Virus record (IMG/VR): IMGVR_UViG_3300025875_000001
Location: 70,814 to 134,813 of that record
From: a virus
Direction: 5' to 3' (one strand)
Length of the DNA: 64,000 bases
Both the position numbers and the translations under genes were made by a program. The notes under the pieces are model-generated. The model was not told where the DNA came from. It saw only the letters and a program-made list of their open reading frames with translations, and did not search any database. Shown here piece by piece: positions 2,776-59,198 of the stretch (within the stretch, counting starts at the first letter, position 1; each line of letters starts with the position of its first letter).

Positions 2776-2844
2776 GCGGGTCGCTAGGAATCGAACCTAG
2801 ATACATCGTGGCTTGATTAAGCTTTACCATTAAGCTACGACCCT
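2776..2844 (-). pseudogene. Degenerate short tRNA (possible Gly GCC remnant)
   Basis: Intact D arm GCTT-AATGGTA-AAGC and T arm CTAGG-TTCGATT-CCTAG; anticodon stem only 3 bp; ~69 nt. Confidence 0.55.
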
Positions 2845-3147
2845 GATTGCTTTAGATTAGAGCATTACTAACCACCCCATTAGTAGTAGTTAACTCTAGG
2901 GTCAGTACATGTATTCTCGACAATGATATGGTCAACCTACCATTGCCGCCGGGATTTTCTGGGAGGCGCGCCCGGTTGCCTAGCATAGACCGTACCGCTA
3001 TGCCTTAGTTTGTTGCTGTGATAATGGCTATCCGTGACGATCTTCACCATTATCAATGGGCGTCCGACTATGCTCCGGGGTATCAACCATTGCGCAATTA
3101 TTGCGGTAGTCGAAATTGCCAGGAGATTCAGGACCCATTTGGAGCTA

Positions 3148-3549
3148 TCAGGCAGAGACGGTCTCGCTAGCACCCGCCGCGCTAGCCTGCTGAGCAGCCG
3201 CCAGAGCGGGCAGGGTGTCCAGCACGTAAGCCTCCAGCACCGGAGCGGTCAGGCGGCCCTTGGTGGGCACAGAGACACCAGCAGCGCGAGCAGCCTGCCG
3301 AACCTCACTCACGATGACCTTGCGGGTGATCGGAGTCTTTCGACCGGAAGCGTTGGTACGCATAGCCTTGACCTCAACTCGCTTAGCGAGGACGGCAGCC
3401 TCCTTGTCGTACTTCTGACCCGGGTTGGCCTTCTCAAAAGCCTCGATGACGTCCGCGCTAAGCTTACCGCGCTGACCGGACTTGACGAGACCCTGCTCAA
3501 CAGCCCACTCGCGGACGGTGGCCAGGGAAACCTTCGTGTTCTTTGCCAT
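3148..3549 (-). CDS. lsr2: Lsr2-like nucleoid protein with tandem DNA-binding domains
   Basis: Two Lsr2 C-terminal-like repeats: VREWAVEQGLVKSGQRGKLSADVIEAF and VRQAARAAGVSVPTKGRLTAPVLEAY; start taken at MAKNTK. Confidence 0.8.
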   Translation of the reverse strand: MAKNTKVSLATVREWAVEQGLVKSGQRGKLSADVIEAFEKANPGQKYDKEAAVLAKRVEVKAMRTNASGRKTPITRKVIVSEVRQAARAAGVSVPTKGRLTAPVLEAYVLDTLPALAAAQQASAAGASETVSA

Positions 3550-3952
3550 GTTGATCACTCTCTTTCGGGTTGTGCGGAGAAACATTGTTGTCTCTCTCGC
3601 TCTGGTAACTACATTACATGCCTTGGTACTGCTTGGCAATACCCGGTATCAAGATTTTTTAGAACAGTTTTCGTTGTGCTGTGCAACCATACAGTCATTA
3701 CGCCGCTAGGATGACTCGACCTGTGCACCGGTTTCCGCCGGGAGGGAGATCCCATAAGTCAGTCTAACCTAATTCATTGCGTGACTAAGGCAATTAAGCC
3801 CGCCTAGCGACTGAATGACTGTACGGTTACGCTGTGTAGTTATGGCGGCAGACTATTTGTATCACGGTCTGCCAGCGCGCCTAGGTGATTATCCCCACGC
3901 CTAGGATGAGGTATTGCTTAGTTGACGAACGAAACTTCCGCGTCAGTTGCCC

Positions 3953-4075
3953 TTAACCCTCTAGCTCAGTAAGAAACTCATCCAGGCTACTGAACAATTC
4001 TTCTCGACCTTCTATGTCACCTTCGTCAACGTAAGGCGAAACGATATCCCAAAGCGCCAGCAGGTTCTTGTTCAT
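3953..4075 (-). CDS. Small acidic hypothetical protein (40 aa, below ORF-track cutoff)
   Basis: MNKNLLALWDIVSPYVDEGDIEGREELFSSLDEFLTELEG*, translated manually. Confidence 0.45.
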   Translation of the reverse strand: MNKNLLALWDIVSPYVDEGDIEGREELFSSLDEFLTELEG

Positions 4076-4244
4076 GTGTCCACCTTAGCAGTTGTGTGTG
4101 AGTCTGTCTAGCTAAACACCGGGCCCTTTTCCTATGCCGTGGTCGCTAGCGCCTTGGGGCTTTATGCGCTACCCGGTGTCTTTGCTGAGAACTACTTAAC
4201 CATAAGTTTGCAGTGAGCACAACCCCTACAATCAAGATCTTTTG

Positions 4245-24760: not shown

Positions 24761-24767
24761 TATCTCT

Positions 24768-25082
24768 TGTAGGTGGGGAGAATCGAACTCCCGTCTTGAT
24801 ATCTTCTACAATAAAAATTAATTACAGCCATTCCGTATCCCCGGCGGGTCTTACTGGCAGTGCGGGTGTTACCAACTAGCTTACGCTAGGACTTGCAAGT
24901 ATTCTGTTCCAAGGTCCTCGCTACCCGGTAACTTAAAGAGTTACAAATGAATATTCGGCACAAAGTGCTTCATATTCTGCATCAATGTTGTCTGCATTTA
25001 TATTTTTGATCTGTTTTAAGTCTCTTATCAAAGACTGGCTGCGTTCTATAGTTTCATATACCAATCGATACCGGTCACCCAC
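24768..25082 (-). ncRNA. ssrA: tmRNA; tag ADNIDAEYEALCAEYSFVTL* (24995-24933)
   Basis: Acceptor GTGGGTG/CACCTAC-A with G3:U70; 5' GACCGGTATCGA D-like loop; T arm GGGAG-TTCGATT-CTCCC; P2 pairings TTGGTAT/ATATCAA and GCAGCC/GGCTGT; resume context ATAAAT-GCA. Confidence 0.88.
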
Positions 25083-25767: not shown

Positions 25768-26001
25768 ATTGACGCGGTGTCGGAGCTTTTAACCAAATCT
25801 TGTCCCCGGGAACACATATCTGGACTCAACCAGACCGCGCCTATTCAATTATATCTAAATTTTCAATATCCCAACAACAAATTTCACCATCATCGTGCTT
25901 AACTGTAACCCGATTATCCATAATGCCGATCACGTAAGCATCATCGAAACCTTGAACATGTACACGATCACCAACTTTGATCATTGTTATCCTTCTATAC
26001 G

Positions 26002-34629: not shown

Positions 34630-35380
34630 TTTTGGAAAGGGCCTAGAATTAACCCCCTCCGTGACAGGCTTTAGTTGGAGTATTATTTCCCAACCTTTCC
34701 GCGTAGTCCCCCACGCACCTGCCGCGCCTAGTAAGTATAGCCTACTACTCTTTATGTCACAAGCTTACTCCACTTCGTTCGATTCAGATAAGAGCCGCTA
34801 AACCCCTACCCTGCACTACTTGAACATGAACACCCTTGGCCTTGCGAGCTTCCAGGTGGCCGGATTCCAAATTGGTCCGGCATTAAGGCGCTTTTGCTTT
34901 GTGACAGGAGAAGTCTTTTGCTTTTATGTATTTGCATTCATAGGCAATGGGACTCAGTCCCGGAGGGTTTGGTAAGAGATGTGCTTCTCCGCGAAGTTCC
35001 GTATCCTTTTGGGATATAGAATGCTTCACACCTCAATATCTTTCGGCTTGCGGGCCTACTCAAATCGTAATCCATTTCACGAACCCGCCGATCCGTTACT
35101 TTGTAGTACATGGATAACGCCCTTGATTGCGGTCTCGGACTATTTACCCTTACTAATCGAACATGATGCTTATGGTGGCGAACCACTACCCCTTTTACCC
35201 TGCCGGGTGACTACAGTCATTCGACCATTCGCCGGGCACTCACATCGCTACAACGCTCATCACATTGCTTAACGACTAGCTTTGTATGGTTGTACCTATT
35301 GCTAGGCGACAAGCAACCAGCCTGCCTTTCTATACGTTACCGTATATTATCGTGCCATACCACGTTCACGTTTTTAATTA
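34630..35380 (-). ncRNA. Large (~750 nt) structured ncRNA, GOLLD-like
   Basis: No credible ORF; many hairpins with UUCG/GNRA-type loops; long-range GAGGTGTG/CACATCTC stem; flanked by tRNAs. Confidence 0.7.
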
Positions 35381-35457: not shown

Positions 35458-35562
35458 ATTGTTCGATAACCTATATGCGGTGTTCGGGCGGATAGCCAAC
35501 CGCCGTTCTTTCGAGAGCACGCTGACCATATAGATTATCTGACTGAGTTGCAACTCAGTTTG

Positions 35563-36915: not shown

Positions 36916-36942
36916 AATTATCCTTTGTTAGTAGTTATATTG

Positions 36943-37026
36943 CACATGCGGCTGGATTCGAACCAGCGGTAGCAAAAGCAACAGATTAACAGTCTGTCCC
37001 GACTCGCCAACGGTCGGCCCGCATGT
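36943..37026 (-). tRNA. tRNA-Asn(GTT) with long variable arm
   Basis: ACAGA-CTGTTAA-TCTGT; 13-nt variable region TGCTTTTGCTACC; G discriminator. Confidence 0.8.
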
Positions 37027-37123: not shown

Positions 37124-37313
37124 ATTGTCCCGATATTATTTACCCTCGGGAGCGGGGAATATGTGCCAATCAGTTTCCGTGCGCTTTGTTCAATTGGCAT
37201 GTGTGTCATCTGCTGTCGCTGTGAACTACCGACAATCGCCGGTAACGGGACTTGCACCCGCCTACATTTGTCCTTATCTCTGGATCAACCCTTATTCGAA
37301 TTCGGATTGCACG

Positions 37314-40568: not shown

Positions 40569-41109
40569 GTGAATAACTGCTTCCTTGCACGCTTTAGGGC
40601 ATCAATAAGTTCGTCCAATCGATCTTCATCAAGTTCTACAAACCAACCGGGGATTTGTGTGTCAACATCTTTCCATCCGCCGGTCATTCCATCATCTGAT
40701 GTGTATCTAGTTCTCAACTTTCCGCCAGGAAAGACAGTAGCAATATTAATCTTCTTAAATTCTTTATCCCATCCAACCCTAACGTAGCTAGTATCAAGCC
40801 AGCCGGTCGCCTGGAGTGGAAAATCTCTACCTGCTTCTACAATTATTTGCTTTGGCATCACGCCACTTCCAATCTGAGCATCACACTCTATAATTATTCA
40901 TTTTCCATACGCTTCAAATTTACATCTTGTCCGCGCATTCTATCTGCCTTGCCTTGTCTAATCCTGACCTGGCCGGGCAAAGAATTAATCCACTTCATCA
41001 TCTCTTGACGAATCAGTAAATCCATTTCGGGAGTGTAAGTTCCGGTATTGATATAATCTACTGGCAAACCATCTTCATAAACAAACATAGTCACTCCTAA
41101 TAATAATTG

Positions 41110-41194
41110 TAGGTGCGGAGGGATTCGAACCCCCGATGGGATATTCTCCGTTGGCTTAAAAGGCCACTCCACTCGGCCACTGTGGGACGCACCC
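41110..41194 (-). tRNA. tRNA-Lys(TTT) with long variable arm
   Basis: GTGGC-CTTTTAA-GCCAA; 16-nt variable region CGGAGAATATCCCATC. Confidence 0.8.
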
Positions 41195-44990: not shown

Positions 44991-45061
44991 GGTGACCGAA
45001 GGGTAACGCTCCCTCTTAGGTGGCTTCACAAACCACTGCATTACTTTTATGCTACGGTCAC
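44991..45061 (-). tRNA. tRNA-His(GTG)
   Basis: GTGGT-TTGTGAA-GCCAC; C73; no genomic G-1; T loop AGCGTTA. Confidence 0.82.
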
Positions 45062-45063
45062 AG

Positions 45064-45139
45064 TGCGGTAGACGAGATTCGAACTCGCAAATCTCCACTT
45101 TGGCAAAGTGGTGCCTTAAACCAGTTTAGCTACTACCAC
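45064..45139 (-). tRNA. tRNA-Gly(GCC)
   Basis: CCACT-TTGCCAA-AGTGG. Confidence 0.9.
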
Positions 45140-45251: not shown

Positions 45252-46833
45252 GCAGTGCTACATTTTTGTGGGAAAGTAGCCAAAACCCCTGTGCGAGCGC
45301 AGTATCCAACAACCATCTACGGAGATTTGATCCTGTTAACTCGTCTCTTACATTGTATTAGACAACTGGCCTGTTGTCAACCCTTGTAGCACTACTAGCT
45401 GCTAGACGATTATGCGCTTCGGTACCAGTAACTACTACCACAAGTCCTGCGAAAGCCAAAAGCAAGGCCGTACCAAAACTAATAGCTAGTGCTAAATCTA
45501 CAAGCAATGCTGTCAGCAATAGCCCTAATACAAACACTACTGCTGCTCTTACGTTGTTATTCTTCATTCTTCTCCATCTGTTAAAGGTAAGTAACTACCA
45601 TCTTTTTGCAAAACTGCCGGGCGATTGGTTGAGCTAGGTACAAAGTAACCTTTTTTATGACCATGCCTACGCATAGCCCTATTACTCCCGGCGGTCTCAT
45701 AAATAACCTCACGGTTAATATGAAGTCCAGATTCTATATCTTCTGCTAGTTCGTTTTCAGACCAACGACTCACTTATCTAAACCGTATGCCCTGTAACCA
45801 ATACCTGCTGCTGATAAAGCACAAGCCGTTTCGCCGTTACCCCAATTGTAAGCCTGAATAGTTACTCTAGCCCCTGCACGCATAAGGTCTGCCAAAGTAG
45901 TATTAGCTACTACATCTAGCTCAATTTCACCAAGCTCAGCTCGCATAAGCTCACTTAGCTCTTCTGCCTTCTCATCAAATCTAGTTGTTGTCATTTTCTT
46001 CTCCAATTAGTAGTTTCATTAGTTCGTCGCTTGTTTCTTTAAGATCCATATCTACCGAAATGGACGTTGGTTTAATAAGGCTATCAAATTTATACTCAGG
46101 AATCGAATCCTTATAGCCAATAGACCAATCTTCAAGAGTTACTGGATATGACTTTCCCTTACCATCAAGGGAGTTATAACCGCTGTAGGTTTACTTTTAA
46201 CAGTATAAGCATCTACTCCCGGTATTTCACTACAAGGATTGCCTTGTTCTTCTACATTATCGTCTTATAGTTTTATCCGCAAGTCAATATCTAGTGTATC
46301 TAGCCAGTCTGCAATTTGATTAACTGTCCACTTTTCATAGTCATTTAAAGCGATAATAACTCTCTCTAGTGTATCTATACAGCCATTGACAGGGTGCTTA
46401 ACCATCTCTTGCAGGCCCGGCAATTTGTTAATTACTGGATGTCGATAAGATACATTGCTATTGCTAGCTTTTTTGTTCTTTTCGGGGATGTCAAATTCAG
46501 TCATATTTTGAACATAACCGATAATATTATTTCGGACAAATTCATCTTCATCAGCCATATTTTTCAATAACATATCTACAATAAAAGCCTTTTGATCACC
46601 ATTATAGTGTTTTTGAAGACCTGCATCAGTCAGCCCAAATTTATAAACACGATAGATTTTGTTTATAAATTTGGGCTGAATTGCATCAAAAATATCAAAA
46701 CTTATTATCGGCGGCTTTATATAAGCAAAGTCGACAACCACAGTAAACCAAAAAGTATGAACGTATATGTCATAATCACGATAAACCTTTACTAAATCTC
46801 CCATAAGTTATCCTTTGGTTAGGTTGGTCGGAG

Positions 46834-46916
46834 CGGAAGCGACAGGATTTGAACCTGCATCGGGATTAACCTTAGCCGCTTTCAAGGCGGTTTGCTACAC
46901 CAATGGCCGCACTTCC
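46834..46916 (-). tRNA. tRNA-Ser(TGA)
   Basis: ACCGC-CTTGAAA-GCGGC; long variable arm. Confidence 0.9.
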
Positions 46917-46918
46917 AT

Positions 46919-46992
46919 ACGCCCGGCGTCCTAGCAATAGACGACCCGCCCCTTCCGGTGCGGGTGGAGAATCCAACTCCATTACCTTGCGT
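46919..46992 (-). ncRNA. Circularly permuted tRNA-like RNA (YrlA-like topology)
   Basis: Order: anticodon-stem strand, T arm, acceptor stem closed by GGAA, D-like arm, anticodon-stem strand; 74 nt. Confidence 0.6.
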
Positions 46993-46994
46993 TG

Positions 46995-47068
46995 TAGGAG
47001 AGGCGGGAATCGAACCCAGCTATCGGAAGCTTATAAGACTTCTGCACCTACCAGCGTGCTGCTCTCCC
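46995..47068 (-). tRNA. tRNA-Ile(TAT)
   Basis: GAAGT-CTTATAA-GCTTC. Confidence 0.85.
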
Positions 47069-47073
47069 ATGTG

Positions 47074-47517
47074 TTACTGAACTTGCTTGCAACACCAATC
47101 ATCATAGTCTTCGGGAGGTTGTATGTCAAGCCATATCATTGGATCTACTGGCTTACCTCCTGTCAATCTACCTCCCGGCCAAACCTCAAAGTGCAGGTGT
47201 GGACCAATTGATTGGCCGTTATTGCCAACTCTTGCTATAAGCTGGCCTTTTACTACTTTATCACCCTTTTTAACCAACAAGTCTTCTAAGTACATGTGAC
47301 CATATACAGTAGAAACCTTTTCGCCATCTATTGTGCTATCTGCTACAATCCAACAGCCAAATCCGCCGACTCCATCCCTAGAATCAACTATAACTGCATC
47401 TTCTGCGGCATATATTTCTGTTTTAAGTGCTGCTGCGAAGTCAACGCCATTGTGCATTGCTGTACCTCGCATGCCAAAGCCACTACTGATTCTATAATCA
47501 TCTAGTGGATATCGCAT
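47074..47517 (-). CDS. M23-family metallopeptidase
   Basis: HNGVDF, YGHM, GPHLHFEV; start moved to MRYPLD to avoid overlap with tRNA-Val. Confidence 0.88.
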   Translation of the reverse strand: MRYPLDDYRISSGFGMRGTAMHNGVDFAAALKTEIYAAEDAVIVDSRDGVGGFGCWIVADSTIDGEKVSTVYGHMYLEDLLVKKGDKVVKGQLIARVGNNGQSIGPHLHFEVWPGGRLTGGKPVDPMIWLDIQPPEDYDDWCCKQVQ

Positions 47518-48735: not shown

Positions 48736-48893
48736 ATTATCAATCTCTGCCTGCCTCATCGGTAATTAACCGAGCTAATACCAGGCTGTCACATTTGAGT
48801 CATTTGAGAGAGATTGATTCGCCTTTAGCAGTCCCCCGGTGTCTCCGAGTTGTATGTTACTAAAGACTCTGATCCGTGTACTTTGGATCATTG

Positions 48894-49667: not shown

Positions 49668-50561
49668 TTAAAAGTTACCTGGCGCTACCTGGAAGCATAC
49701 TAGACCAATGCTACGCCATGCGTCAACTACCTGCTGCCTGTCATCTAGCACAAACTGCACATCGTAATTGTCCCTGACGTATTCATTGAATAGTTCTAGC
49801 TTGACGATACTATCTTTCCTTTGGTCCCCGGTCTTTCGCATATACACCTTATCCCAGGGAACATCATTATCATTAAGCCAGTTTTGGGAATCAATACTAC
49901 TTATATCGTCCCGGCCGCTCATGATTATAATCATATACCCGGCTTCGTCTGCCCAACGAACAACCTCGGCAACATGATCAATTAGCTCATCGTCATATAC
50001 CTTAGTAAAATCATAGAACGAACGATGACCATTATTACGTGCCAGGGTACCATCAAGATCTACCAGAATAGCCTTCTTTGTACCCGGCTTTGCTACATAA
50101 GGTGCATGCGTTGGGTCGGGCTCAGGATATAGGTCAATCTCATTCAATGGATTCCGAACAAGATCTTGATGCTGCTTCTTGATTACTTCTTCTGGAACGA
50201 GCCTACCACCCATAGAGTGCCTTGTCCATACCCGGCCAATTGCCTTATTGACATCTATATCTACCTGCTTAACATCAAAAGTAGCATTGTGCTCTAGAGC
50301 AATAGCTGCAAAGTGACGCAAATACTTAGGACGGATGTTAGTGTTGTCAACAACCACATTGCACCCGGCCTTTAGCAGAGCATGGACACTAGCGTCTTCA
50401 ATAACACTAACTACTGTCTCATCAACACTAGCATAGTCCTTGAATACGGCTTCACGAATGTTGTCACGGCTTACCACCGCCCAACCTTCACGCTTTAGCT
50501 GCTCGACATATGTGCTCTTTCCACTACCACTAATACCACGCATACATAATAGCTTACTCAT
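49668..50561 (-). CDS. pseT: Polynucleotide 5'-kinase/3'-phosphatase (T4 PseT-like Pnkp)
   Basis: GISGSGKST P-loop, SRDNIR, VVDNTN; HAD motif ILVDLDGT; VLDDRQQVVDAWRSIGLVCFQVA. Confidence 0.92.
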   Translation of the reverse strand: MSKLLCMRGISGSGKSTYVEQLKREGWAVVSRDNIREAVFKDYASVDETVVSVIEDASVHALLKAGCNVVVDNTNIRPKYLRHFAAIALEHNATFDVKQVDIDVNKAIGRVWTRHSMGGRLVPEEVIKKQHQDLVRNPLNEIDLYPEPDPTHAPYVAKPGTKKAILVDLDGTLARNNGHRSFYDFTKVYDDELIDHVAEVVRWADEAGYMIIIMSGRDDISSIDSQNWLNDNDVPWDKVYMRKTGDQRKDSIVKLELFNEYVRDNYDVQFVLDDRQQVVDAWRSIGLVCFQVAPGNF

Positions 50562-51122: not shown

Positions 51123-51758
51123 TCAGAAATCCCTTGTCTTTAGCTTAAACATTAGTCGCTTACCAGCATTGTTTGTTAGCTCTACTGGTGACTTAGCAAT
51201 AATGCCCTCAGCCTGTACCGGCCGAATTGCGAATGTGCTACCAAAGCCATCTCGGCATGCAGCTATAATGGCATCAAGATCATACATACCTAAATTTGGC
51301 GCTGTATCAATTTGAAGTTCAGCCACACATGCATAAAAGTCAGCAGGTGACAGCCACAAATCATTTGCACGCACATCGAACGCCCTGAACTCTACATCAT
51401 TGGAGTAGTTTCCACCACCATTGATCTTAGGACCATATGACTCACCGTAAACTGTTAGCGAATCCAGACCAAACCTGTCCATAAGATCATTAGCTGCCGG
51501 ATGGATTGCATGAACTGTATCGATAAGGCTATTTTCTACCGGCGATGGGAGGTTAGCATTAGCTGTGCGCCCACCAAATGACCATACAACATCACCATCT
51601 TCATAGCCAAAACGAATCCACGTAGAAGTGCCGTCAATTTTTTCTGTAACGCTCCATCTATCTAGTAGTGCAAACTCCGGTCGTGTAAATTCGCCGGGTA
51701 TAATCTTAAAATTACTATCACGCTTAAACAGGGTATCTATTTTATTATAGTAGTCCAT
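51123..51758 (-). CDS. Rnl2-family RNA ligase (adenylyltransferase domain)
   Basis: TEKIDGT (motif I), YGESYG, FRAFDV, EGIIAK, MFKLKT. Confidence 0.82.
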
Positions 51759-52000
51759 CTTTACCTCTCTTGTTTTGGGCCTGCTCACTGGCTGTAGCCC
51801 ATCTACAATTATCTGGAGTATAGTCGCCATTTACATCTATTCTATCTAACGTCCTATCCTCCGGCCTTACGCCCATATCCTCTAAGAAATTAACGAACTC
51901 AGACCAACGGTCGCATACCCTAATGCCTCTGCCACCGTAATGTTTATAGTTTTTATTTAGCTGATTAGAGCACCTAGCTCGCATCGCAATCCAAGACCAC
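51745..52000 (-). pseudogene. 3' half of an HNH-type endonuclease
   Basis: SWIAMRARC...[17 protein letters not shown]...[20 protein letters not shown]; no N-terminus. Confidence 0.75.
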
Positions 52001-52510
52001 CAGCCCGGCAAAATCGCCGTAATCAAGTACAATTCTGTTACTAGGGTAAATTATCTCTGCTAGAAAAGTGTAACCAGCATATAGCTTAAATAACTCTAAA
52101 GAGTCATTGTGGTTCTCTCTAATGTGCTGGGTAGCCCATTCGGCTTGACTGGAATGAAATGATCCTCTAGTAGATACATGCACTTGATCATCGTACACGA
52201 AGATAATACCAAGTGACCCATCGGCTTTATCTGTTACCTCAACAAGATCGTCAAAACCAATGTAAGGCGTTTGCGCTTCACCTAGATTCCAAAATTTACT
52301 TAGCGGCCTAGCAATAACATTACCTGTCAGTTGCTCATAGATAAGCCCACGACATTGAGTCGTCACATCATTCCAACACTTTTTGAATGCGGCCAAATCT
52401 GAATAATTTGCAATAGTCAGCGGATGACCCTCATGGCTACGCAGAGTAACCATCTTGTCTGTTTGCATTTGACGGAATAGATCACCATCAAACAGATCAC
52501 TAATTTTCAT
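51974..52510 (-). pseudogene. 5' half of a T4 Rnl1-family RNA ligase
   Basis: [50 protein letters not shown]; ends at ~178 aa without the later motifs. Confidence 0.8.
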
Positions 52511-52633
52511 TGCGGCTCCCGCCAATAGTATGGATAAGTGTAAGGGCGGACGTATACGCTGAGACGACTAATTTTATCCTACGCAACGCAATGTTACATG
52601 ACAGGACGCCTACCCCTGCACTACCCTTACCTG

Positions 52634-52719
52634 TGACGCAGACGGGGATCGAACCCGCGACTCCTTTCGGAGTACTAGATTGAAAGTCTAGCTACCAGTG
52701 CCAACACAGTCACTGCGCC
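52634..52719 (-). tRNA. tRNA-Glu(TTC) with long variable arm
   Basis: CTAGA-CTTTCAA-TCTAG; variable arm ACTCC-GAAA-GGAGT. Confidence 0.82.
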
Positions 52720-55284: not shown

Positions 55285-55285
55285 G

Positions 55286-55357
55286 TGTGCCCACTCGGAT
55301 TCGAACCGAGATGTTAGATTTTAGAGGTCCATCAGTTACCTTTACTGACATAGGCGC
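55286..55357 (-). tRNA. tRNA with CUA anticodon (amber suppressor; Pyl-like loop)
   Basis: TGGAC-CTCTAAA-ATCTA; D stem TCAGT/ACTGA; T arm CTCGG-TTCGAAT-CCGAG. Confidence 0.75.
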
Positions 55358-56639: not shown

Positions 56640-59198
56640 CTAAATCATAGTTATTCTACTAAAATAGTCTGAAAGATCATCCGGCATCTCCATCGTTGGA
56701 GGCTTAATAATTACATTACCCGGCCTTTCATCTAGACTATTTCTATTCTCCTTTTTTATATCTTGTATCGTTCTTACTTCTACTATATTTGACTGTTCCG
56801 GCCTTGCCGTTGACAACGCATTGAATATAGCACCACATGTAGCATCTGCCAAGTCTTTAGTGCCTGATCTTGGATGGTCAACTTTATCGTCATTCGTGAT
56901 TCTGAGCTGTAGCAACTCTTTTTTTAACAGCTCTATATCTGGCATAATGACTCTATGCTCACCGACAGCACCGGCCATATCTTGATAATGTTTCTTGGCC
57001 ACTGAAAGCTTTTCGGTAGGAATGCCGAATTTCTCTAAATAATTACGCATATCATCAGATTCCCACTGATCGAAAGTTACTTTCTTGATATTAAATCCCC
57101 GGCGATACAAAGAAACAATATACTCCCTTACCTCAGTGAAGTCAACAGACTTTTCCTTGGTGGGCGTCCACCATCTTACAGCATCAACATACACTACAGG
57201 TGCGGCATCTGTAAAGGTGTTGACAATCTTCATAGACTGCCAGCTCTCTACGTGAGCCAAGCTCACAGCACAGTTATCATGCTTACGAGCCAAATCAACA
57301 TGGATATAATATTCTTTAGTGTCATCTGGTCTAAAGAAATACTGAAAAGTCCCGTCTTCACTTACTCCATTACGCCCGATCATGGCATCATCAATCTTTT
57401 GCCTATCCTTAAAGAAGGCGTCAATTGCCTCGGCTGGCTGACAGGCAAAACGTCCTGTAGCATCTGGCTTATTACGATAAAAAGCGGTTACATATTCTTG
57501 ATTGGTTATCTTTTTGGTTGGATTTACTTCCCATGTTGGCCTCCGCAAAGCAAATACGTATGGAATCTTATAAGAAAGAATATCATCTTCTTCCCACTCA
57601 ATGATTACTCTATTACTTTCGCTATCAGGCAAATCTGGATTCAGAGGGACAGCCACTCTTTTAGGAGTAGTAACCTTTTCTTCGATTACAGAAGCATAGT
57701 GAGTACTAATGAAATCACCCTTGTAACGGGGGAATGACAACAATACAACTTTCCCATAAATACCAAAACGAGAGTCAACAGACGCTCTATACATATTGTA
57801 AACTGCGTCGGCGGTCTTCTTTGATTCTGACGTAGACTCGGTGGCAAATCCTGAAATCTCATCAAGTACCACCATTATAGTGTTATAACCCTCCCAAGCT
57901 TCACGCTCTGAATGACCAGAATATAAATTAATATTTTTATCAAACTTAACCTCTCCAGACTGAGCTGGTTCACCATTATCTTTAGCATCATATTTGCCCT
58001 TGAAATAATTACTTTTCTTCAAAAGCCTAACGACACCTTTAAAAAATACATTCTTAGCTTGATCTGAGTTAATAGCAATATTAATAATATCGAAAGAGTC
58101 ACCACTTGGTTTATCAAAGTACTTGGCTGGGTTTTTTAGACACATAAGTAAATAAACCAAATAAGCACAACTAAAGGTTGAAAGCATATCTTTACCAGAT
58201 TGATGACTTATTCTTAGATTACCTATATAGTTATGTGTTTCTGGTTGTGTAAGAGTCCAATAATCTCCTTCACCCTTCCGGCGAATCCAGGTGATTTTAT
58301 CCCAAAATAGACCATCTTTTACTTTACCTTTTCTCTTAGTTAATATCCAAGTATACTTGTTTGGGTAAGTAATTTTATATGGCTGGCCAACTCTTGCCCA
58401 TGCATGCTGAATATCTTGCCCCAATTGATATGAATTAGTTACAAACCGTTCACCCTCAATACAAACTTTACGCAAGAACATTTCAAGCACTCTATTATCA
58501 GACTTCCACAAGTCTGCTGGTATTGCTGCATTAGGATCCGTTGAATCAAGAGTATCTACTATTTCTTTTAGACGCATGCTTGAAATGTTAATTGGATTAA
58601 CAACATCGAATCCAATAGCAGTAGCTATTAAGTCACCCTCTTTTAGCTCCACCGCTGGAACCCATCTACCCCAATTTACTTTATTTTCAAACTTCTTCCA
58701 AGGCATTGCATAATATTGATGACCAACATATACAGTCTCTCTAGTACCTGAAATAGTCTCTACCTCTATCATTTGCCCTCGGCCTTCGTGGAAAGCTTCT
58801 GTGGCATATTGTGGAGTAAGGCTTAAGTCTTCATTCATGCCGACAACTAATGTATCAGACTTAATTGAATCTAGACGTTGCCAAGCCCCGGTATTTGCAT
58901 TAAACACCGGGGTCTCGGGAGCATGACAACCTTTACCAAACTGCAAAATTACTTCTGTCTCAGTTTGATCCCAACGCTTTTCCGCCTCCATAGGAGAGAG
59001 ATATTCGTATAGAGTTTCTTTTCTATAAATTTGTGTAGAACGCAACACGGCTTCACGTTGATATGGACTTAACCTTACATCTGGCTCATTAAGATACCTT
59101 TCGTCAGCAATAAAGGTATCAATATCAACCGGCTTTTCTGCAAGATCGCCGTCATCTAATGAATTTAGGATACCGTCAAAATCAAACAGGGACGACAA
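56640..59198 (-). CDS. terL: Terminase large subunit (intein-containing)
   Basis: Walker A GKG|SGKD, Walker B VVLDEISGF, nuclease motif YIHVDLA, C-terminal DHPRSGTKDLADA. Confidence 0.92.
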   Translation of the reverse strand: MSSLFDFDGILNSLDDGDLAEKPVDIDTFIADERYLNEPDVRLSPYQREAVLRSTQIYRKETLYEYLSPMEAEKRWDQTETEVILQFGKGCHAPETPVFNANTGAWQRLDSIKSDTLVVGMNEDLSLTPQYATEAFHEGRGQMIEVETISGTRETVYVGHQYYAMPWKKFENKVNWGRWVPAVELKEGDLIATAIGFDVVNPINISSMRLKEIVDTLDSTDPNAAIPADLWKSDNRVLEMFLRKVCIEGERFVTNSYQLGQDIQHAWARVGQPYKITYPNKYTWILTKRKGKVKDGLFWDKITWIRRKGEGDYWTLTQPETHNYIGNLRISHQSGKDMLSTFSCAYLVYLLMCLKNPAKYFDKPSGDSFDIINIAINSDQAKNVFFKGVVRLLKKSNYFKGKYDAKDNGEPAQSGEVKFDKNINLYSGHSEREAWEGYNTIMVVLDEISGFATESTSESKKTADAVYNMYRASVDSRFGIYGKVVLLSFPRYKGDFISTHYASVIEEKVTTPKRVAVPLNPDLPDSESNRVIIEWEEDDILSYKIPYVFALRRPTWEVNPTKKITNQEYVTAFYRNKPDATGRFACQPAEAIDAFFKDRQKIDDAMIGRNGVSEDGTFQYFFRPDDTKEYYIHVDLARKHDNCAVSLAHVESWQSMKIVNTFTDAAPVVYVDAVRWWTPTKEKSVDFTEVREYIVSLYRRGFNIKKVTFDQWESDDMRNYLEKFGIPTEKLSVAKKHYQDMAGAVGEHRVIMPDIELLKKELLQLRITNDDKVDHPRSGTKDLADATCGAIFNALSTARPEQSNIVEVRTIQDIKKENRNSLDERPGNVIIKPPTMEMPDDLSDYFSRITMI
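58200..58928 (-). mobile_element. 243-aa intein (Cys1...His-Gln) with degenerate endonuclease region
   Basis: CHAPETPV start, ELKEGDLIA, THNYIGNLRISHQ end followed by Ser; inserted in the P-loop. Confidence 0.85.

What the first reader, a model, noticed from the sequence alone, without database searches (positions are those of the whole stretch)
46919..46992. 74-nt circularly permuted tRNA mimic between tRNA-Ile(TAT) and tRNA-Ser(TGA)
Minus-strand sequence: ACGC-AAGG-TAA-[TGGAG-TTGGATT-CTCCA]-[CCCGC-ACC-GGAA-GGG-GCGGG]-T-[CGTCT-ATTGCTA-GGACG]-CCGG-GCGT. T arm, acceptor and D arm are all present, but the acceptor is sealed by a GNRA loop and the free ends lie where the anticodon loop should be. 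With only 2-nt spacers to the flanking tRNAs, their processing would release it. This topology matches the tRNA-like module of bacterial YrlA RNAs, but no Ro60/Rsr gene or Ro-binding stem is visible here. It also resembles an anticodon-cleaved tRNA, so it could be a decoy or a substrate for the phage Pnkp/ligases.
Basis: partly seen in the sequence, partly recalled or inferred. Interest (0 to 1): 0.8.

Follow-up and report, generated by a model that had tools for sequence, protein, structure and literature searches.

The report
Stand-alone tRNA-shaped RNA in phage
Between two tRNA genes this uncultured Streptomyces-phage-like virus encodes a real 74-base RNA shaped like a tRNA body with a sealed acceptor end: it is the tRNA-like half of the Y RNAs that related phages pair with a Ro60 protein, kept here without the Ro60 docking stem and without any Ro60 gene.

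Summary
Window 46919-46992 (minus strand) folds as closing stem, T arm, GNRA-sealed 8-bp acceptor hairpin and D arm. It lies 1-2 nt after tRNA-Ile(UAU) and 2 nt before tRNA-Ser(UGA).

The structure is not chance. Three metagenomic relatives carry copies between tRNA genes. Window versus L091 is 45% identical, yet 14 of 23 pairs changed on both sides and still pair. In an 11-member alignment, 94% of cells pair against 63% in shuffles. The window copy alone has swapped the tertiary 19:56 pair (G-C to C-G).

The layout is that of the tRNA-like module of YrlA (Rfam RF02553). Ro60-encoding relatives such as Streptomyces phage Gilson carry the same module on a long conserved "handle" stem upstream of Ro60. 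The window copy has no handle and no YrlA hit, and its complete 134.8-kb genome has no Ro60. All four handle-less copies lie in records without Ro60.

I read it as a stand-alone tRNA-body mimic released by tRNA processing; its target is unknown. It is a new variant of a known kind.

This scan has often noted YrlA-type mimics in other phages, nearly always beside Ro60-like genes.

The parts
46919..46992 (-). 74-nt handle-less YrlA-type tRNA-like RNA (whole element)
   Evidence: Sequence; fold; homologues and covariation
46985..46992 (-). 5' strand of the closing stem (ACGC-AA-GG). It occupies the place of the 3' strand of a tRNA anticodon stem.
   Evidence: Pairs with 46919-46926 as 4 bp, a 2x2 A/G internal loop, then 2 bp. 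The helix is kept in relatives, with 5 of 6 pairs showing double changes.
46965..46981 (-). T arm: TGGAG-TTGGATT-CTCCA, with G53-C61, T54, T55 and A58. Position 56 is G (coordinate 46974) instead of C.
   Evidence: 100% of cells paired in 11 sequences; recovered independently by RNAalifold
46945..46964 (-). Sealed acceptor hairpin CCCGCACC-GGAA-GGGGCGGG. It has 8 layers including one G.A mismatch and a GNRA tetraloop.
   Evidence: all 8 pairs show double changes across the family; its length varies from 5 to 9 bp among handle-less copies
46928..46942 (-). D arm GTCT-ATTGCTA-GGAC, preceded by U8 and C9 at 46944-46943. It has G10-C25, U13.G22, A14, G18 and A21. Position 19 is C (coordinate 46934), which compensates for G56.
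   Evidence: the other 10 family members have G19 with C56; only this copy has C19 with G56
46919..46926 (-). 3' strand of the closing stem (CC-GG-GCGT)
46994..47068 (-). tRNA-Ile(UAU). Its 3' processing would set the 5' end of the element.
   Evidence: Rfam tRNA 37.6 bits; no encoded CCA
46833..46916 (-). tRNA-Ser(UGA). RNase P cleavage at its 5' end would set the 3' end of the element.
   Evidence: The position immediately 5' of tRNA-Ser(UGA) is shared by L091 and by the Y-like RNA cluster of phage Gilson.
47101..47129 (-). Promoter-like site TTGACA-17-TATGAT, 33 nt upstream of tRNA-Ile(UAU). It is a possible start of an Ile/element/Ser/ORF179 transcription unit.
   Evidence: Consensus scan only, 11 of 12 matches; no terminator-like site on the minus strand downstream. 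Weak evidence.
46265..46804 (-). ORF179, starting 29 nt after tRNA-Ser. Its C-terminal ~60-75 aa are 52-66% identical to the C-terminus of the gene that follows Ro60 in Gilson-type phages (gp107). It is a neighbour and synteny marker; a functional link is unproven.
   Evidence: no Pfam or PHROG family; weak MerR-like HTH resemblance from a poor model

Best explanation
The element is a genuine small RNA gene: a handle-less version of the tRNA-like module of phage and bacterial Y RNAs (YrlA type).

Shown here:
- It has a T arm, a loop-sealed acceptor-like hairpin and a D arm on a short closing stem.
- The four helices and the T-loop/D-loop contact are conserved with compensatory changes in distant relatives.
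- Ro60-encoding relatives carry the same module mounted on a long conserved stem next to Ro60.
- This copy and three others lack that stem, abut tRNA genes directly, and sit in records without Ro60.

Inferred:
- It is co-transcribed with the tRNA array.
- It is cut out as a roughly 74-78-nt RNA when RNase P trims tRNA-Ser and RNase Z or exonucleases trim tRNA-Ile.
- It folds into an L-shaped tRNA body with no anticodon and no free CCA end.
- It acts on its own as a tRNA-body (elbow) mimic. It would occupy or recruit a protein that recognises the tRNA elbow, from the host or the phage, independently of phage Ro60.
- The elbow, not the acceptor, is the likely working part, because the acceptor hairpin varies from absent to 9 bp among copies.

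With its 8-bp acceptor, this particular copy may additionally be nicked by RNase P and receive CCA, as M. smegmatis YrlA does.
For: Anatomy and fold.

Handle-less homologues, all abutting tRNA genes with 0-4 nt spacers:
- L091:12380-12452, between tRNA-Val and tRNA-Ser(UGA).
- L105:4317-4391, 34.8 bits, in a complete 133-kb genome, filling the gap from tRNA-Val to tRNA-Ile(UAU).
- L158:978-1042, 32.7 bits, 1 nt before tRNA-Ile(UAU).

Covariation:
- Window versus L091 is 45% identical, with 14 of 23 pairs changed on both sides and still paired. Window versus L105 has 8 such pairs.
- In the 11-sequence family alignment, 94.4% of cells pair against 63.4% in shuffles; 20 of 23 pairs show double changes; 0 of 500 shuffles reach this; slid controls give 34-49%.
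- An independent MAFFT plus RNAalifold run recovers the T, acceptor and D arms, with 16 of 17 pairs compensatory.
- The tertiary 19:56 pair is swapped only in the window copy.

Kinship with YrlA and Ro60 systems:
- The model hits two unannotated sites in Streptomyces phage Gilson. One lies between tRNA-Ile and tRNA-Ser(UGA); the other lies upstream of gp106, which is Ro60 (TROVE 1.5e-36, vWA_Ro60 3.4e-56).
- Rfam YrlA hits these two sites at 30.8 and 27.4 bits.
- The Gilson units carry a repeated handle, GGGUCGGAU...AUAUCC.

No Ro60 in the window genome or in G020.

[quoted passage not shown] 2014, PMC4201824).
Against: - No RNA data exist for this uncultured phage, so transcription, processing and stability are all inferred.
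- The element scores nothing against Rfam YrlA or tRNA, even at E<=10.
- ARAGORN does not accept the de-permuted sequence as a tRNA.
- Only four handle-less copies are known, and two of them lie on short contigs whose Ro60 status is open.
- One complete Ro60-less relative (G001) has no module at all, and L087/L088 carry only a partial T-arm/D-arm version. The RNA is therefore dispensable in some lineages.
- No binding partner is identified.
- The host is unknown and may encode its own Ro60.
Confidence: 0.6

Rival explanations
1. Evolutionary relic. The element is what is left of a Y RNA after the lineage lost Ro60 and the docking stem. It survives only as a harmless structured spacer between two tRNAs, or helps their processing, and has no function of its own.
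For: Other spacers of this tRNA array also fold into hairpins. A complete Ro60-less relative lacks the module. L087/L088 show an eroded or partial form at the same place. ORF179 looks like a shortened homologue of the gene that follows Ro60 in relatives, which fits a deletion around Ro60.
Against: Handle-less copies in three lineages, whose terminases are only about 51-53% identical to the window's, keep all four helices through many double substitutions. The window copy has even repaired the tertiary 19:56 pair. Neutral decay would have broken these pairs. Two flanking tRNAs already supply processing sites, so a spacer would not need a tRNA elbow.
Confidence: 0.2
2. Permuted or split tRNA. 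RNase P and RNase Z open the sealed acceptor, CCA is added, and the phage RNA ligases may join the free ends. The product would be a two-piece or circular tRNA-like molecule that is charged, or that serves as a substrate or decoy for the Pnkp/ligase repair system.
For: The acceptor plus T stack is 13 bp, enough for RNase P measuring. M. smegmatis YrlA with a 7-bp acceptor is cleaved and receives CCA in vivo (PMC4201824). The excised RNA would carry a 5'-phosphate and a 3'-OH across a stem. Pnkp and two RNA ligases are encoded 3-5 kb away.
Against: There is no anticodon loop and no bulge-helix-bulge motif. The de-permuted sequence is not called a tRNA. Acceptor length is not conserved: 5 bp in L158, 8 in the window and L105, 9 in L091, and none in the first module of L105 and L158. 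Opening of the acceptor therefore cannot be the shared function. The G-1:C73 feature that suggested histidine identity is absent from L091 and L158. The overhangs at the free ends differ (3-6 nt), so ligation would not create a common loop.
Confidence: 0.08
3. It still works with a Ro60 protein, namely the host's Rsr. The short closing stem would be a minimal docking site, so the element would be a true but minimal Y RNA.
For: Many actinobacteria encode Rsr (for example M. smegmatis, PMC4201824). The phage family appears to infect actinomycetes: its relatives are Streptomyces and Rhodococcus phages.
Against: The closing stem has 6 Watson-Crick pairs. It has neither the GNCGAAN0-1G motif of bacterial Y RNAs nor the GGGUCGGAU handle of related phages. 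There is no room for more stem, because tRNA genes start 1-2 nt away. The host is unidentified.
Confidence: 0.07
4. Chance resemblance, or the junction of two decayed tRNA genes.
For: The energy z-score is modest. The covariance model also picks up junctions of adjacent tRNA genes, such as L086:6151-6224 and window 45029-45098.
Against: The two acceptor strands pair with each other and are capped by a GNRA loop, which a junction of two unrelated tRNAs would not give. The ends pair with each other. Homologues with compensatory changes exist.
Confidence: 0.02

Closest known systems
YrlA (Y RNA-like A; Rfam RF02553) of Salmonella, M. smegmatis and mycobacteriophages (Chen et al. 2014, PMC4201824)
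   Same: The same order of elements: stem, variable region, T arm, loop-closed acceptor stem, D arm, stem. The tRNA-type T-loop and D-loop nucleotides allow the elbow contacts. It is found in phages with large tRNA arrays. An acceptor of 7 bp or more is compatible with RNase P cleavage.
   Different: It has no Ro60-binding helix, no GNCGAAN0-1G motif and no adjacent or genomic Ro60 gene. It gives no Rfam hit even at E<=10 and is 74 nt against about 114 nt. It is bounded directly by tRNA genes rather than by its own long stem. The 19:56 pair is inverted.
Unannotated Y-like RNAs beside Ro60 in Stanwilliamsviridae and related actinophages. Examples: Streptomyces phage Gilson, 5 units at NC_048742 about 66842-68165; Rhodococcus phage Trina 'tRNA-OTHER'; Streptomyces phage BRock.
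   Same: Homologous tRNA-like module (22-35 bits with the model built from the handle-less copies). The same genomic neighbourhood: downstream of tRNA-Ile, just upstream of tRNA-Ser(UGA), near a gp107-like gene.
   Different: Those units carry a conserved handle (GGGUCGGAU...AUAUCC, or GAUGAGUCGAAUG...) and lie next to Ro60. The window element has neither.
Circularly permuted tRNA genes of Cyanidioschyzon merolae and other algae (from my own knowledge; not re-read here)
   Same: The 3' half (T arm and acceptor 3' strand) precedes the 5' half (acceptor 5' strand and D arm), with a short linker sealing the acceptor.
   Different: Those genes encode complete tRNAs with an anticodon loop. They are circularised at a bulge-helix-bulge motif by the splicing machinery. 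Here there is no anticodon loop and no such motif, and bacteria lack that pathway.
tRNA-like processing signals (plant mitochondrial t-elements, mascRNA-type tRNA-like 3' ends; from my own knowledge)
   Same: tRNA-shaped RNAs without decoding function that are recognised by RNase P or RNase Z.
   Different: Those have an open acceptor end, which is the cleavage site, and they mark mRNA ends. Here the acceptor is sealed and real tRNAs already flank the element on both sides.

Membership tests
YrlA / bacterial and phage Y RNA (RF02553) | tRNA-like module: T arm, then loop-closed acceptor-like stem, then D arm, on a closing stem | tested here: met
   The order is the same as in the Rfam YrlA consensus printed.
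YrlA / bacterial and phage Y RNA (RF02553) | Conserved T-loop and D-loop nucleotides that allow tRNA tertiary contacts | tested here: met
   T54, T55, A58, G53-C61, U8, A14, G18 and A21 are present. The 19:56 pair is present as C-G instead of G-C.
YrlA / bacterial and phage Y RNA (RF02553) | Ro60-binding helix formed by the 5' and 3' ends, with the conserved GNCGAAN0-1G motif or the phage handle | tested here: not met
   The closing stem is only ACGC-AA-GG/CC-GG-GCGT, and tRNA genes start 1-2 nt away. The handle 8-mer occurs at chance frequency in the genome: 4 copies, none near the element.
YrlA / bacterial and phage Y RNA (RF02553) | Encoded next to, or in the same genome as, a Ro60/Rsr (TROVE) gene | tested here: not met
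   There is no TROVE, vWA_Ro60 or DUF2828 match in the complete 134.8-kb genome. The DUF2828 search had no positive control. tblastn with Gilson Ro60 finds nothing.
YrlA / bacterial and phage Y RNA (RF02553) | Score at or above Rfam's gathering threshold (69 bits) | tested here: not met
   No YrlA match at E<=10 on 46500-47400. Even the handle-bearing Gilson units reach only 27-31 bits.
YrlA / bacterial and phage Y RNA (RF02553) | Bound by Ro60; modified by TruB and DusA | not testable with these tools
   Needs biochemistry.
Permuted tRNA gene | Re-joining the halves gives a sequence recognised as a complete tRNA with an anticodon loop | tested here: not met
   ARAGORN finds no tRNA in 12 de-permuted constructs. 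The element has no anticodon loop.
Canonical tRNA | Detected by ARAGORN or the Rfam tRNA model | tested here: not met

The most novel reading that the evidence does not exclude
The tRNA-like half of Y RNAs is an autonomous functional unit. In several Ro60-less phage lineages it has been kept for a long time as a free-standing, tRNA-flanked RNA. If so, its target is not Ro60 but some tRNA-elbow-binding factor, and the Ro60-bearing Y RNAs of related phages would merely tether Ro60 to that same factor. A bolder extension is that the neighbouring gp107-like protein (ORF179) is that factor. The weak MerR-like HTH resemblance, and the presence of this domain in small phages that lack the RNA, speak against that extension.
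Probability: 0.35. Interest if true: 0.7.

Novelty: new variant of a known kind. Interest (0 to 1): 0.55.

Why it matters
What the tRNA-like domain of bacterial and phage Y RNAs does has been open since it was described in 2014. It is modified like a tRNA and sometimes cut by RNase P, but its partner is unknown. A natural version that has shed both the Ro60 docking stem and the Ro60 gene, yet keeps its fold under selection, acts as a separation-of-function variant. It suggests that the domain works by itself. It also offers a minimal 74-nt bait for finding the partner. Finally, it shows that phage tRNA arrays hide non-tRNA genes that standard annotation skips, and that covariance models built on Ro60-linked examples do not detect.

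Tried and rejected
- Rfam at E<=10 gave no YrlA or tRNA hit on the element.
- ARAGORN rejected 12 de-permuted constructs. The 3-nt variable region, the tandem G.A in the stem and G56 probably all contribute.
- megablast and blastn of the region against 50,697 phage records found nothing.
- An exact 22-mer scan of IMG/VR found nothing.
- A degenerate pattern (AAGGTAA..GTTNGANTC..GTCTA) found only G020 plus tRNA-tRNA junctions and random hits.
- The M23 peptidase neighbour retrieved only unrelated prophage lysins.
- ORF179 used alone as a pattern query found nothing.
- The covariance model gives false positives where two tRNA genes abut, such as L086:6151-6224 and window 45029-45098. These were checked against ARAGORN and discarded.
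- A flank-to-flank duplex energy test did not separate handle-bearing from handle-less copies, because tRNA flanks also pair by chance.
- Histidine identity (G-1:C73 on an 8-bp acceptor) was considered and dropped, because it is not conserved in L091 or L158.
- The AlphaFold model of ORF179 was too poor to search (pLDDT 48). The Atlas gave only a weak MerR-like HTH resemblance.
- I found no paper describing handle-less modules in Ro60-less phages among the few that hold the search terms. That is a limited search, not proof of absence.
- A terminase tree was not built, because only five taxa have a known Ro60 status.

Full report
**The observation**

ARAGORN finds 33 tRNA genes in the window, all on the minus strand. 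tRNA-Ile(tat) ends at 46994 by ARAGORN, or 46995 by Rfam, and tRNA-Ser(tga) starts at 46916. The spacers are therefore 1-2 nt and 2 nt. RNAfold returns the four-way junction as the minimum-energy and centroid fold (-30.4 kcal/mol). The z-score against shuffles is only -1.74, so the thermodynamics alone would not make the case.

**Anatomy in tRNA numbering (read directly from the sequence)**

- The first arm has G53-C61, T54, T55 and A58 of a T arm.
- It is followed without a gap by eight layers of acceptor-like helix: 66-73 pairing with -1 to 7, with one G2.A71 mismatch, closed by a GGAA tetraloop.
- Next come U8, C9 and a 4-bp D stem with G10-C25 and U13.G22.
- The D loop has A14, G18 and A21, and is followed by G26.
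- The two ends pair as 2 bp, a 2x2 A/G internal loop and 4 bp, where the anticodon stem would be.
- The T loop has G at position 56 and the D loop has C at position 19. This is the universal G19-C56 Watson-Crick pair inverted.

**Where the window comes from**

The window is the right-hand 64 kb of a 134,813-bp IMG/VR virus record. The record has terminal repeats, is judged complete, and has 42% G+C. Its terminase is 51-58% identical to those of Streptomyces phages of the family Stanwilliamsviridae and of metagenomic relatives. No close DNA relative exists in the collections searched.

**Homologues**

A covariance model of the single sequence aligned end to end with a 73-nt stretch of contig L091. 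That stretch sits in the 78-nt gap between tRNA-Val(tac) and tRNA-Ser(tga), which is the same place relative to tRNA-Ser. A model built from both sequences (R2) then found further copies.

*Copies without a long outer stem, directly abutting tRNA genes:*
- L105:4317-4391 scores 34.8 bits. It has the same GUCU/GGAC D stem and the same AAGGUAA junction as the window. It lies in a complete 133-kb genome. Together with an acceptor-less T-arm/D-arm module in front of it, it fills the 130-nt gap from tRNA-Val to tRNA-Ile(tat) exactly.
- L158:978-1042 scores 32.7 bits and has the same two-module layout. It ends 1 nt before tRNA-Ile(tat).

*Copies mounted on a long stem:*
- Streptomyces phage Gilson has two (27.0 and 27.2 bits).
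- Rhodococcus phage Trina has two.
- Several IMG/VR and metagenome contigs have them: L100, L101/L104, L102/L103, L108 and L142.

Hits at junctions of adjacent tRNA genes were recognised as false positives and discarded.

**Covariation**

- Window versus L091 is 45% identical. Of 23 pairs, 14 changed on both sides and still pair, 2 changed on one side, 6 are unchanged and 1 is not paired in both.
- Window versus L105 has 8 double changes.
- In the 11-sequence alignment fitted to the model, 94.4% of cells form standard pairs against 63.4% in shuffles. Twenty of 23 pairs show double changes, no shuffle of 500 reaches any measure, and sliding the partners drops pairing to 34-49%.
- That alignment leans towards the model, so I repeated the test with a plain MAFFT alignment and RNAalifold. 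It recovered the T, acceptor and D helices, with 16 of 17 pairs showing compensatory changes.
- Single-sequence folds of the window, L091, L105 and Gilson copies each give the same junction.
- In both alignments the window copy alone has G56 with C19; the other ten have C56 with G19.

A double change that restores a tertiary pair is good evidence that the elbow forms and matters in this copy.

**Relation to Ro60 and YrlA**

Rfam's YrlA consensus has exactly this order of elements inside a long stem. It hits the two Gilson sites at 30.8 and 27.4 bits, below its 69-bit threshold. Gilson gp106, about 700 nt downstream of the second site, is a Ro60 (TROVE 1.5e-36, vWA_Ro60 3.4e-56). The gaps between tRNA-Ile and tRNA-Ser(tga) and upstream of Ro60 in Gilson hold five unannotated units. 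Each begins GGGUCGGAU and ends AUAUCC. The same handle clusters in the other Ro60-encoding relatives. L142 and L108 use a different handle that contains the GNCGAANG motif described for bacterial Y RNAs.

The window element has no such stem and no room for one, and it gives no YrlA hit at E<=10. The window genome has no TROVE, vWA_Ro60 or DUF2828 match and no tblastn match to Gilson Ro60. The handle 8-mer occurs in it only at chance frequency.

*Tally.* Four handle-less, tRNA-abutting copies lie in records without detectable Ro60; two of those records are complete genomes and two are short contigs. All eleven handle-bearing R2 hits listed above (twelve with the BRock copy found by blastn) lie in records with Ro60. 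One complete Ro60-less relative (G001) has no module. L087/L088 carry only a closing stem, a T arm and a D-like arm at the same place.

**Synteny**

ORF179 starts 29 nt after tRNA-Ser. It shares a highly conserved C-terminal domain with Gilson gp107, the gene right after Ro60, and with a Trina gene 3 kb from its Ro60. In the Ro60-less L105 and L158 the same domain is encoded 1-1.6 kb downstream of the module. The window therefore looks like the Gilson neighbourhood with Ro60 and the handles missing.

The direction of change, loss or gain, is not resolved. Terminase identities to the window are 58% (G019, Ro60+), 57% (G001, Ro60-), 54% (G017, Ro60+), 53% (G010) and 51% (G020, Ro60-). The Ro60-less genomes are therefore not obviously each other's closest kin.

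**How it most likely works**

*Shown:* the conserved tRNA-like fold, the absence of the Ro60 part, and the direct flanking by tRNA genes.

*Inferred:*
- The RNA is made as part of the tRNA transcript. A consensus promoter-like site lies 33 nt upstream of tRNA-Ile, with no terminator-like site downstream; this is weak evidence.
- It is freed by the enzymes that mature its neighbours. The phage tRNAs lack encoded CCA, so endonucleolytic 3' processing and CCA addition are expected in the host.
- It then acts alone as a mimic of the tRNA body.
- The elbow is probably the working surface, because the T-loop/D-loop core is the invariant part while the acceptor hairpin ranges from none (first module of L105 and L158) through 5 bp to 9 bp.
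- What it binds is unknown. Candidates are tRNA-elbow readers such as processing and modification enzymes, or whatever partner the tRNA-like domain of Ro60-bound Y RNAs engages.
- The 8-bp acceptor of this copy could additionally be opened by RNase P and CCA-tailed, as reported for M. smegmatis YrlA with a 7-bp stem (PMC4201824). That cannot be the shared function.

**Rivals**

- A neutral relic or spacer is the main rival. The amount of compensated change among handle-less copies, and the repaired tertiary pair, argue against it.
- A permuted or split tRNA, or a ligase substrate, is unlikely. There is no anticodon loop, ARAGORN rejects the de-permuted form, and acceptor length and end overhangs are not conserved.
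- Use of a host Ro60 is not excluded, but the stem has none of the known docking features.

**Comparison with what is known, and novelty**

The module works like, and is homologous to, the tRNA-like domain of YrlA. It fails three defining features of the YrlA family that I could test: the Ro60-binding helix, linkage to a Ro60 gene, and the Rfam score. I therefore file it as a handle-less variant and not as a member.

Earlier notes of this scan describe many YrlA-type mimics in phage tRNA arrays, almost all beside Ro60-like genes. One describes a Ro-independent double mimic with another protein neighbour. So the general kind is not new to the scan or to the literature. What is new is a monomeric, tRNA-bounded, handle-less form in Ro60-less genomes, with evidence of continued selection. 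I found no description of it in the papers I could search.

**Limits**

- There are no expression data and the host is unknown.
- There are only four handle-less copies.
- The loci were fetched through the ORF179 domain, so its co-occurrence with the RNA is biased by ascertainment.
- That domain also occurs in small phages without the RNA.

Noticed in passing
window 34638-35036 (-): GOLLD RNA (Rfam RF02032, 179.8 bits, above threshold) lies inside the tRNA array.
   Followed up: partly
window 24767-25082 (-): Phage-encoded tmRNA (RF00023, 68.9 bits).
   Followed up: no
window 2776-2844 (-): A tRNA found by Rfam (41 bits) but not by ARAGORN. No tRNA-Met was called anywhere in the genome by ARAGORN, and I did not check the anticodon of this extra gene.
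   Followed up: no
window 36942-37026, 41109-41194, 52633-52719 (-): The tRNA-Asn, tRNA-Lys(UUU) and tRNA-Glu(UUC) genes are 85-87 nt long, presumably because of long extra arms. There is also a tRNA with anticodon CUA (amber suppressor type) at 55285-55357.
   Followed up: no
window 35458-35561, 37124-37312, 48736-48892, 25930-26000 (-): Other gaps between tRNA genes fold into long stems or multi-branch structures. For example, a 13-bp stem GATAATCTATATG/CATATAGGTTATC encloses a GGCGG-TTGGCTA-TCCGCC hairpin. None matched model R2 or an Rfam family.
   Followed up: partly
window 56640-59198 (-): The large terminase is 852 aa, against about 603-618 aa in relatives. Residues 92-333 are an insertion with a weak, sub-threshold intein-splicing match, so it is a probable intein.
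   Followed up: partly
window 49668-50561, 51123-51830, 51974-52525 (-): An RNA repair gene set: Pnkp (kinase plus HAD phosphatase), an RNA ligase (PF09414), and a short Rnl1-like ligase of 183 aa that covers only the first two thirds of the Pfam model.
   Followed up: partly
L096 (Streptomyces phage Gilson NC_048742) 2842-3236 and 3950-4165: Five tandem Y-like RNA units are unannotated in the GenBank record. Each starts GGGUCGGAU and ends AUAUCC. At least three carry a tRNA-like module, and they lie upstream of Ro60 gp106. Rhodococcus phage Trina annotates the equivalent region as a pseudo 'tRNA-OTHER'.
   Followed up: partly
L105:4262-4316 and L158:~925-977: An acceptor-less module (T arm, 3-6 nt linker, D arm) sits directly in front of the full module, so that the two form one tRNA-bounded RNA of about 130 nt. 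L087:19985-20059 may be a single module of this reduced kind.
   Followed up: partly
window 46265-46804 (-) and homologues: The C-terminal motif LPGLxEMVKHPV...LNDxxKWT...IADWLDTLDIDL is almost invariant across phages whose terminases are about 50% identical. It matches no Pfam or PHROG family. It follows Ro60 in Gilson-type phages, but also occurs in 46-kb phages that lack Ro60 and the RNA.
   Followed up: partly
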